Assembly (NCBI GenBank): GCA_964016885.1
Contig: OZ024742.1
Span: 177,010,001 to 177,074,000 of the forward strand
DNA: 64,000 nt
Origin: Eledone cirrhosa
Taxonomy: Eukaryota
Reading direction: 5' to 3'
The notes below the pieces were generated by a model that saw only the letters and a program-made list of their open reading frames with translations, was not told the origin of the DNA and made no database searches. Each line of letters begins with the position of its first letter. Position 1 is the first letter of the stretch. Shown here piece after piece: positions 665-2,473 of this stretch. Both the position numbers and the translations under genes were made by a program.

Positions 665-1430
665 AAATGGAAAAAAATGAAATTTCATTTCTCACTCTTA
701 GTACGGCTGATATTTAAATATAAGTAGGTATTATTACATACATATATGTATACAGACGCACAGTAGTATGTATATACATACATACATGCACACATATAAT
801 ATATATATATATATATATATGTACGTATAGGTTTACCGAACATTTATCATAATGTTCGGTTTGTTCGTAAACAAACAGCCCGGATTATTAGCCATACAGT
901 GTTCGGCAACATTCGTTGCCCTTCTGTTCAACACTGACAAAGGAACGATGAACTAGTTTGCAGCTTATTAGCTGTCGTCAGCACTGTATACCTTCCTGTC
1001 AGTTGATTGAAGGTTTGAAAGTATCAGCCTAATTTGCATATCGAGTGATTTAGTCGGCTGGGCGTACTGAAAACGATAAATGAAAAAAATGAAATTTCAT
1101 TTCTCACTCTTAGTACAGCTGATACTTAAATATAAGTATGTATACGTACATATATGTATACATACGTACAGTAGTATGTATATACATACATACATGCACA
1201 CACACACATATATATATATATATATATATATATATATATATATATATATATATATATATATATATATGTGTGTGTGTGTGTACGTATAGGTTTACCGAAC
1301 ATTTATTATAATGCTCGGTTTGATTGTAAACAAACAGCCCGAATTATTAGCCGTACAGTGTTCAGCAACCCTCGTTGCCCTTTTGTTCAACACTAACAAA
1401 GGAACCATGAATTAGTTTCTAGCTTATTTA
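665..1430 (-). repeat. Two tandem ~410-460 bp monomers of a hammerhead-bearing repeat (retrozyme/pLTR-like)
   Basis: Unit starting aaaaaatgaaatttcatttctcactcttagtac recurs at ~671 and ~1083, with an internal (TA)n. Further copies at 2130-2473 and 34422-35330. Confidence 0.85.
946..986 (-). ncRNA. Minimal type-I hammerhead ribozyme with a G12C core mutation
   Basis: Minus strand reads cagtg CTGACGA cagct-aata-agctg CAAA ctag TT catcg. Sister copies at 34690 and 35085 have GAAA. Confidence 0.7.
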
Positions 1431-1631
1431 CAGAAGTAGTATATGGTGCACTATCTCTCTCTCTCTAGTGAGTTATCTTTTCCACATATTGTATTATAAA
1501 GAACTCGGGATTCCTTCTTCTTTGAGGACATTACTGACAGGGAATAGCGAGAGTTTAAGGCTCCGTTAATTTATCGTGATATTTCGCTCCTTATAACAGT
1601 CTTTCCTCTCTCTCTGTTTGGTTGAGCACAC

Positions 1632-1682
1632 TTCTCTGAGTATTTTGGGCTGCCCTTTCTAGCAGCTCGTTCCTCAGAGACC
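1632..1682 (-). ncRNA. Degenerate hammerhead-like motif
   Basis: Minus strand reads tct CTGAGGA acgagctgc-tagaaagg-gcagccc AAAA tac TC aga. GAAA is mutated and stem III is eroded. Confidence 0.4.
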
Positions 1683-1780
1683 ACTGGTTACTGCCGTAGG
1701 CACGCTGTGAATTCTCTCTCCCACGTGTGGCTGGACAGTCGCTTTAGATTCTCTTAGAGTTGTCTGAAATGTATAGCCTT

Positions 1781-1864
1781 ACACACGCTGATGATCCATG
1801 GGCTAATCATTTCTGTCAACAACTTATTTGGCGAAACAGATCTTTTTTGGATTTGTACGTGTGT
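1781..1864 (+). ncRNA. Type-I hammerhead ribozyme with long stems I and III
   Basis: acacacg CTGATGA tccatggg...cttatttggc GAAA cagatc-T-rich loop-gatttg TA cgtgtgt. Stem I is 7 bp, stem III is 7 bp, cleavage triplet GUA; U.C mismatch at the base of stem II. Confidence 0.8.
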
Positions 1865-2129
1865 GTTAGATAGTTATCAAGGTATGTATTTACACTTTAA
1901 TTCATACTTTTAATTATTGTGTGTCTACTCTGCCTTCCATGGGCTATATATTCCATACACTGGTGGTTATTCCCTGTTTGACTGATGGCGCACTATCTCT
2001 CTCTCTAGTGTGTTATCTTTTCTACATATTGTATTATAAAGAGCTCGGGATTCCTTCTCCTTTGAGCACATTACTGACAGGGAATAGTGAGAGTCTATGG
2101 CTCCGTTAATTTATCGTGATATATATATT

Positions 2130-2473
2130 CATTTCTCACTCTTAGTACGGCTGATACTTAAATATAAGTATGTATACGTACATACATATATGTATACAGA
2201 CGTACAGCAGTATGTATATACATACATACATGCACACACATATATATATATATATATATATATATATATATATATATATATATATATATATATATATATA
2301 TATATATATATATATATGTGTGTGTGTGTGTGTGTGTACGTATAGGTTTACCGAACAATTATTATAATGCTCGGTTTTATTGTAAACAAACAGCCGGAAT
2401 TATTATCCGTACAGTGTTCAGCAACCATCGTTGCCCTTTTATTCAACACTGACAAAGGAACGATGAAATAGTT
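2130..2473 (-). repeat. Third, truncated monomer of the 665-1430 family
   Basis: Runs from catttctcactcttagtacggctg to acactgacaaaggaacgatgaa and ends inside the HHR at a (TA)n tract. Confidence 0.8.

What the first reader, a model, noticed from the sequence alone, without database searches (positions are those of the whole stretch)
665..2473. ~410-460 bp tandem monomer family with a minimal HHR and an internal microsatellite
Seen: head-to-tail monomers at 665 and 1080 and a third at 2130. The first carries a complete minus-strand CTGACGA-NAGCT-AATA-AGCTN-SAAA-CTAG-TH motif; the other two are truncated within it. Monomer length varies with the internal (TA)/(CA) tract. Inference: this is non-LTR retrozyme architecture, and it may also disperse microsatellite seeds.
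Basis: partly seen in the sequence, partly recalled or inferred. Interest (0 to 1): 0.7.

Follow-up and report, generated by a model that had tools for sequence, protein, structure and literature searches.

The report
Broken copy of abundant hammerhead retrozyme
This is an old, damaged copy of a very common 430-base non-coding repeat that carries a predicted self-cutting RNA; its insertions have the two fixed ends of Penelope-like retrotransposons, which likely spread it, so it is a new member of a known kind of animal mobile element.

Summary
The repeats are real. They belong to a ~428-nt non-coding family with a type I hammerhead (12,043 exact cores in this 3.0-Gb genome). No copy here has an intact ribozyme: copy 1 has C in place of G12, and copies 2 and 3 are cut inside the motif. 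It most likely inserted into what was one ~2.6-unit array.

Arrays are not phased at the cleavage site. They end at one of two fixed points, ~220 or ~275 nt past it (65 of 73 arms), usually into (TA)n. Head-to-head arm pairs carry one long and one short end (79 of 83 classifiable pairs), and 60 of 73 arms read through the cleavage site. This is the Penelope-like "tail" and inversion signature. TA-targeting Hydra-type Penelope elements are abundant here, but I found no parent element.

Verdict: an animal non-LTR retrozyme, likely mobilised by Penelope-like enzymes. Cleavage and circular RNA are untested. My idea that one insertion uses two different RNAs failed its control. The scan has already reported such families, in this genome and others.

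The parts
663..1079 (-). Copy 1 of family AB (subfamily A). It runs from unit position 274 through the hammerhead to the long 3' end at 663, which is followed by (TA)n. It has a ~30-nt deletion upstream of the ribozyme.
951..981 (-). Type I hammerhead core of copy 1: CUGACGA at 981-975, helix II 974-961, C instead of G12 at 960, palindromic helix III, predicted cleavage between 951 and 950. Helix I strands extend to about 1010 and 925.
1080..1428 (-). Copy 2, tandem with copy 1. It starts 18 nt before the cleavage site, so CUGANGA is missing, and helix III is also mutated.
1429..1442 (.). Short filler of unknown origin at the junction between copy 2 and the 5' end of element C
1443..2122 (+). 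Element C: an unrelated 542-nt hammerhead unit, 1.26 copies (1443-1582 repeated at 1985-2122), ending at its long 3' end.
1788..1857 (+). Type I hammerhead of element C with intact core, long helix III and 8-bp helix I; predicted cleavage after 1857
2128..2473 (-). Copy 3, from 7 nt before the cleavage site (the 5' end of the array, next to (TA)n) to unit position 253, where element C begins
1208..1281 (.). Expanded internal (TA)30 plus (TG)n tract of copy 2. Copy 3 has (TA)39 at 2240-2317 and copy 1 has (TA)11; the family median is 6.
34422..35337 (.). Another insertion of the same family (subfamily B): head-to-head arms 34422-34948 (-, long end) and 34967-35337 (+, short end), both ending in TA-rich sequence

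Best explanation
The three repeats are a decayed copy of a high-copy, non-coding ~428-nt hammerhead repeat (an animal non-LTR retrozyme) that is likely copied into (TA)n microsatellites by the enzymes of Penelope-like retrotransposons, and a second hammerhead element likely jumped into this array later. Shown from sequence: two fixed 3' ends (about 220 and 275 nt after the cleavage site), variable 5' ends, TA-rich 3' flanks, head-to-head arms with one long and one short end, and arrays that run through the cleavage site. Inferred mechanism: a Penelope-type RT/GIY-YIG protein binds the RNA, nicks both strands of a (TA)n tract and primes cDNA from two internal start sites ~55 nt apart. It copies through the ribozyme site because the template is a ligated circle or an uncut multimer, and the two cDNAs join at their truncated ends. 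Both arms likely come from one RNA or from sibling RNAs. The ribozyme is predicted to work best as a dimer through its ACUAGU palindrome and would cut transcripts of intact arrays into monomers; this window's copies would not cut.
For: Family size: 12,043 exact cores, 16,828 matches to an internal probe, present in 4 of 40 spaced 10-kb segments. Ends: 65 of 73 arms picked by the internal probe end at unit positions 211-222 (29) or 264-276 (36). The next 12 nt are TA-like in 104 of 151 long and 63 of 90 short AB ends, against 525 of 8,000 random 12-mers. Pairs: 48 of 50 AB and 31 of 33 C pairs with both ends classifiable are long+short; 40 more same-family pairs had an unclassifiable end. Family C repeats the pattern with an 84-nt offset. 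Frangieh 2024 (PMC11167929, parts 1-2 of 4 read) shows in vitro that a PLE cuts and extends both strands, starts at two internal RNA sites that define the genomic tail, and does not need ribozyme cleavage. Craig 2021 describes tail, inverted 5'-truncated copies and (TA)n targeting, including Hydra PLEs with hammerheads. ORF L076 has the Hydra DKT and CxCX5C motifs, and its nearest Atlas clusters carry HTH_animal on 25-31% of members, with GIY-YIG in lower-ranked hits. A PLE remnant in this window ends hammerhead-(TA)n. Read-through: 60 of 73 arms extend more than 10 nt past the cleavage site and 15 pass two or more sites. Arm pairs differ by 5.0% (n=43), tandem units by 4.5% (n=85), and copies from other loci by 10.1%. 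One array: all three window copies share a variant seen in 2% of 112 other A-type copies, and copies 2 and 3 share one seen in 0%. Helix I shows a G.U to U.G double change between subfamilies.
Against: No parent PLE: the units matched none of 15 sampled PLE 3' regions. Pfam named only 2 of 13 candidate ORFs (RVT_1), and the PDB search gave nothing significant. The core is only slightly more conserved than the rest of the unit, and no change at 11 core positions among 23 A/B differences is expected by chance about 30% of the time (my estimate). The covariation rests mostly on one pair in related sequences and I drew the structure myself. Four of 83 pairs break the long+short rule. The loci were picked by tail patterns, which favours long ends. 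Five of 73 arms stop within about 10 nt of the cleavage site, so some templates may be cut linear RNA. Copies 2 and 3 share variants that copy 1 lacks, which fits a mixed multimer or later conversion better than one circle. In the minimum-energy fold of the circular A unit the hammerhead is not formed. Li 2026 found cleavage in only 1 of 9 Xenopus retrozyme dimers.
Confidence: 0.82

Rival explanations
1. The units are only the terminal repeats (pLTRs) of an autonomous Penelope-like element, left by heavy 5' truncation, and have no life cycle of their own.
For: Same end architecture as PLEs. Autonomous PLE remnants here end with hammerhead then (TA)n. Li 2026 links Xenopus retrozymes to pLTRs.
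Against: Upstream of a unit lies another unit, up to 7.5 in a row. No shared PLE ORF junction was found upstream in sense among the unpaired arms examined. No match to 15 PLE 3' regions. An ancestral origin from a pLTR remains likely.
Confidence: 0.08
2. The element is a strict rolling-circle retrozyme whose arrays are phased at the hammerhead cleavage site and are mobilised by a LINE or another RT from the cut 3' end.
For: Tandem units each carry one hammerhead. Circular retrozyme RNAs are shown in coral, mussel and axolotl. Five of 73 arms have 5' ends near the cleavage site. LINE ORFs are abundant in the genome.
Against: 3' ends lie ~220 or ~275 nt from the cleavage site, with no poly(A), and show the long+short pairing. 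A circular template is still possible, but priming is internal and PLE-like.
Confidence: 0.06
3. The window holds a chimeric insertion in which one Penelope complex used two different RNAs (AB and C) for its two head-to-head arms.
For: AB and C meet 5' to 5' with a 14-nt gap here and an 8-nt gap in L030. A few AB or C arms abut other hammerhead or PLE sequence directly, for example L129, L158, L162 and L249.
Against: No excess: 6 head-to-head vs 6 same-direction library hits among 163 unpaired 5' flanks, and 94 of 2,960 random points give such a hit. Both AB/C pairs are long+long, against the rule. Same-family arms are as alike as tandem units. Copy 3 shares rare variants with copies 1-2, so C splits one array.
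Confidence: 0.1
4. Locus-specific tandem duplication of satellite-like DNA with a chance hammerhead-like motif.
For: The motif is broken in all three copies here, and Rfam found nothing at gathering threshold.
Against: Thousands of dispersed copies. The core is intact in 32 of 39 A and 77 of 89 B copies. The descriptor gave 0 hits on reversed sequence.
Confidence: 0.01

Closest known systems
Animal non-LTR retrozymes (Cervera and de la Pena 2020, PMC7229834: passages and parts 2-4 of 6 read; Li, Clavereau and Pollet 2026, 10.64898/2026.07.22.740005: parts 1-3 of 5 read)
   Same: Short low-GC non-coding tandem units with one type I hammerhead each. 2-bp helix III. Subfamily B has a U.U mismatch at the base of helix II, like axolotl HHR_Amex2. 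Coexists with PLEs.
   Different: Unit of 428-430 nt with an internal TA/CA tract. Mostly 1-1.5-unit arms, not long arrays. (TA)n flanks instead of a described target-site duplication. The PLE link is read here from insertion ends, whereas the parts I read of those papers argue it from co-occurrence and pLTR homology. Cleavage and circles are not shown here.
Endonuclease-bearing Penelope-like elements, especially the Hydra clade (Craig 2021, PMC8557442: passages and section 11; Frangieh 2024, PMC11167929: parts 1-2 of 4; Arkhipova 2013, PMC3846280: passages; Cervera 2014, PMC4209133: part 1 of 4)
   Same: Partial tandems, an inverted 5'-truncated second arm, a tail on one end only, (TA)n target, and a hammerhead upstream of the 3' end.
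   Different: No ORF. The tail is ~55 nt (AB) or ~84 nt (C), against 30-40 bp described. No sequence homology to the sampled PLE ends.
Non-autonomous Chlamys elements such as MRC1 (Craig 2021, passage)
   Same: Non-coding PLE passengers that form pLTRs and multicopy head-to-tail insertions
   Different: Those are algal, resemble their autonomous partners at the 3' end, and belong to a group reported to lack canonical hammerheads.

Membership tests
Animal non-LTR retrozyme | Short (about 150-450 nt) tandem non-coding units of low GC | tested here: met
   428 and 430 nt, GC 0.35-0.36, longest Met ORF 57-68 aa; arrays up to 7.5 units
Animal non-LTR retrozyme | One type I hammerhead per unit with intact core | tested here: met
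   Met for the family: 32 of 39 A and 77 of 89 B copies intact; helices fold. Not met for the three copies in this window.
Animal non-LTR retrozyme | Dispersed at many loci, without LTR-retrotransposon structure | tested here: met
   12,043 cores on both strands; arms are tandem units ending in (TA)n. PBS and PPT were not searched for separately.
Animal non-LTR retrozyme | At least two consecutive complete hammerheads (the 'active' criterion of Li 2026) | tested here: met
   Exact cores at 420-430-nt spacing, for example five in a row at C1:19,315,053-19,316,767; 15 of 73 arms pass two or more cleavage sites. Not met at this locus.
Animal non-LTR retrozyme | Self-cleavage of the RNA | not testable with these tools
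   Needs an in vitro assay
Animal non-LTR retrozyme | Expressed as monomeric linear and circular RNA | not testable with these tools
PLE-mobilised insertion | Two alternative 3' ends that define a tail | tested here: met
   65 of 73 arms; family C likewise
PLE-mobilised insertion | Inverted 5'-truncated arm, with the tail on one end only | tested here: met
   79 of 83 classifiable same-family pairs are long+short
PLE-mobilised insertion | AT-rich or (TA)n target | tested here: met
   271 of 362 classified ends are followed by a TA-like 12-mer, against 525 of 8,000 random
PLE-mobilised insertion | Homology to the pLTR or 3' end of an autonomous PLE | tested here: inconclusive
   No match to 15 sampled PLE 3' regions; the genome's PLEs were not surveyed in full
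Autonomous PLE | ORF with RT and GIY-YIG endonuclease | tested here: not met
   Only microsatellite-derived or short ORFs in 600-2550

The most novel reading that the evidence does not exclude
These insertions record how Penelope enzymes copy a retrozyme. A PLE dimer cuts both strands of a (TA)n tract and each subunit primes at one of two fixed sites on one circular ribozyme RNA, then runs round it by strand displacement. That would explain the near-strict long+short rule and the read-through of the cleavage site. The genome would also be extremely rich in hammerheads: 21 descriptor hits in 400 kb extrapolate to about 150,000 (Poisson range 97,000-240,000, too narrow because hits cluster). That is roughly ten times the density implied for axolotl, although the descriptors differ.
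Probability: 0.35. Interest if true: 0.65.

Novelty: new member of a known kind. Interest (0 to 1): 0.4.

Why it matters
Who mobilises animal retrozymes has been argued in the papers I read from co-occurrence and pLTR homology. Here two unrelated non-coding hammerhead families show the two-start-site tail and inverted-arm pattern that Frangieh 2024 tied to PLE reverse transcription. This gives exact predicted priming sites (unit positions ~220 and ~275) and a ready test of circular versus linear templates. My five literature searches listed no paper describing hammerheads or retrozymes in octopods, and the 2026 Octopus vulgaris repeat annotation has no 'ribozyme' or 'hammerhead' in its main text. 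Supplements were not read and may list such elements. The locus itself is a dead, ordinary copy, and the scan has noted this kind of family before.

Tried and rejected
Rfam at gathering threshold found nothing in the window.

I first suspected that 1440-2125 was a GIY-YIG fragment. It is a non-coding hammerhead family instead.

The Pfam family search for a PLE helix-turn-helix domain was not possible because the family is absent from that library. Pfam named 2 of 13 candidate ORFs, and the PDB search gave no significant hit.

The search for a parent PLE among 15 3' regions found none. No shared upstream junction appeared among unpaired arms.

Expression: no RNA holder listed. The one possibly-RNA run laid 0 contigs; three runs of unknown kind hold the family or relatives. 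This says nothing about expression.

The two-template chimera idea showed no excess over controls and was dropped for this locus.

A pile-up of 5' ends at the unit start (position ~277) was not convincing: 2 of 73. The tract regex missed the window copies and was redone, where subfamily labels mostly failed, so only pooled counts are used. The dimer cofold did not give the catalytic dimer and is not used as evidence.

Rows dropped: overlapping duplicate loci, most loci (covered again), arms touching a locus edge, and microsatellite-only hits.

Full report
Observation. The window comes from a 3.0-Gb microsatellite-rich animal genome. That it is an octopod is my inference from a recalled SINE, and earlier scan notes say the same; I did not test it. 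Aligning to family units numbered from the predicted cleavage site gives two minus-strand arms: 663-1428 (positions 410 to 273, 1.68 units) and 2128-2473 (421 to 253). The hammerhead of copy 1 lies at 981-951. It differs from the family at two adjacent bases, one of them G12, which is C here, so it is predicted dead. Copies 2 and 3 lack CUGANGA. Copy 1 also has a ~30-nt deletion, so unit length is not only a matter of the TA tract.

The family. An exact 31-nt core pattern occurs 12,043 times, with 0 for the reversed control. A 35-nt pattern specific to this window's subfamily A occurs 744 times, and an internal probe 16,828 times. The family was present in 4 of 40 evenly spaced 10-kb segments from contigs 1-8. 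Units are 428-430 nt, 35-36% GC and non-coding. The core is intact in 32 of 39 A and 77 of 89 B copies that span it. Helix I has 6 bp plus distal extensions, helix II 4 bp with a mismatched base pair, and helix III 2 bp around a palindrome. A and B differ by a G.U to U.G swap in helix I. Core conservation exceeds the rest only slightly, so selection on the ribozyme is suggested but not shown.

1443-2122 is an unrelated 542-nt unit on the + strand with its own type I hammerhead at 1788-1857. Its long-end pattern has 896 exact matches, and the core was intact in 19 of 26 anchored copies. All three AB copies share a variant found in 2% of 112 other A-type copies, and copies 2 and 3 share one found in none. 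The simplest history is one ~2.6-unit array flanked by (TA)n, later split by element C with loss of unit positions 254-409.

Insertion anatomy. For 73 arms chosen by an internal probe (the first 25 Mb of contig 1, so not genome-wide), 29 end at 211-222 and 36 at 264-276; 5' ends are scattered. Sixty run more than 10 nt past the cleavage site, 5 stop near it and 8 stop short of it. In 277 non-redundant loci, head-to-head pairs with both ends classifiable were long+short in 48 of 50 (AB) and 31 of 33 (C); 40 further same-family pairs had an unclassifiable end. Classified ends are followed by TA-like sequence in 271 of 362 cases, against 6.6% at random. The two arms of a pair differ by 5.0% (AB) and 5.7% (C), tandem units by 4.5% and 7.1%, and copies from other loci by 10-12%. 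Both arms therefore usually come from one RNA or close siblings.

Mechanism. Frangieh 2024 showed that a PLE protein cuts and extends both target strands, starts at two internal RNA sites that bracket the genomic tail, is predicted to be a dimer, and does not need hammerhead cleavage. Craig 2021 and Arkhipova 2013 describe the inverted arm and the one-sided tail. PLE remnants are common here. One ORF has the Hydra motifs DKT and CxCX5C, with PLE-type Atlas neighbours as a lead, and Hydra elements target (TA)n and carry hammerheads. I infer that the AB and C RNAs borrow such a protein. Whether the template is a circle or an uncut multimer cannot be told from DNA. Read-through fits both, and the variants shared by copies 2 and 3 alone lean slightly towards a multimer or later conversion.

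Results against my reading. No parent PLE was found. The idea that the AB/C junction is a two-RNA chimera failed: 6 head-to-head and 6 same-direction hits among 163 flanks, at the random rate, and both AB/C pairs are long+long. The covariation is thin. The circular A unit does not fold into the hammerhead at minimum energy.

Microsatellites. The longest internal TA run is 5-7 units in 196 of 272 units and 20 or more in 18, two of them in this window. The element can therefore seed tracts, but mainly it lands in existing ones.

Context. A relaxed type I descriptor gave 21 hits in 400 kb and 6 in the window, with none on reversed sequence. It gave 217 hits in 26 clusters in 894 kb of fetched, family-enriched DNA. 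Extrapolated, that is about 150,000 motifs, against 126,247 reported for the 28-Gb axolotl genome with another descriptor.

Known or new. This is a new member of the animal non-LTR retrozymes. My searches listed no report for octopods; supplements were not seen. Earlier scan notes reached the same reading on other DNA, including this genome. I had that reading before looking them up, and they are not independent support. Interest 0.4.

Noticed in passing
window 7817-8126 (-) and 8704-11340 (+): Two Penelope-like remnants back to back. The + one has RT-thumb and GIY-YIG-like ORF pieces, a long 3' region, a type I hammerhead at 11248 and then (TA)n.
   Followed up: partly
window 34060-34320, 38925, 39467, 46406; copies at 11804-12011 and 28275-28481: Further hammerhead families: one at 34228; a pair 542 nt apart at 38925 and 39467; one at 46406. 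A dispersed repeat matches 343-569 directly left of the finding.
   Followed up: no
genome-wide sample: At least 14 multi-copy hammerhead clusters, several with two distances from cleavage site to (TA)n, suggesting the same long/short end pattern in many families.
   Followed up: partly
L162:1300-4300 (C1 near 18.49 Mb): An AB arm joined directly, 5' to 5', to a truncated Hydra-type GIY-YIG coding piece; the junction is present twice in inverted orientation.
   Followed up: partly
L158:2666-2845, L129:1815-1900, L249:2864-3095, L151:1980-2208: AB or C arms that abut other hammerhead-bearing elements head to head with no TA between; not above the random rate.
   Followed up: partly
L146:2745-6900: A young insertion with 2.4 + 7.5 units head to head; most adjacent units differ by under 1%. 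A good candidate for cleavage and circle assays.
   Followed up: partly
L028:1948-3264; window 24293-25264: RT ORF pieces (Pfam RVT_1) that look like other PLE clades (labels recalled, not tested); an AB copy lies just upstream of the L028 one.
   Followed up: no
window 14841-16226; L077:4350-8288: ORF pieces resembling a Helitron Rep/helicase (recalled, not tested).
   Followed up: no
window 55935-56315, 58249-59081: Tandem 187-235-nt copies of a very frequent short repeat that I recall as an octopus SINE.
   Followed up: no
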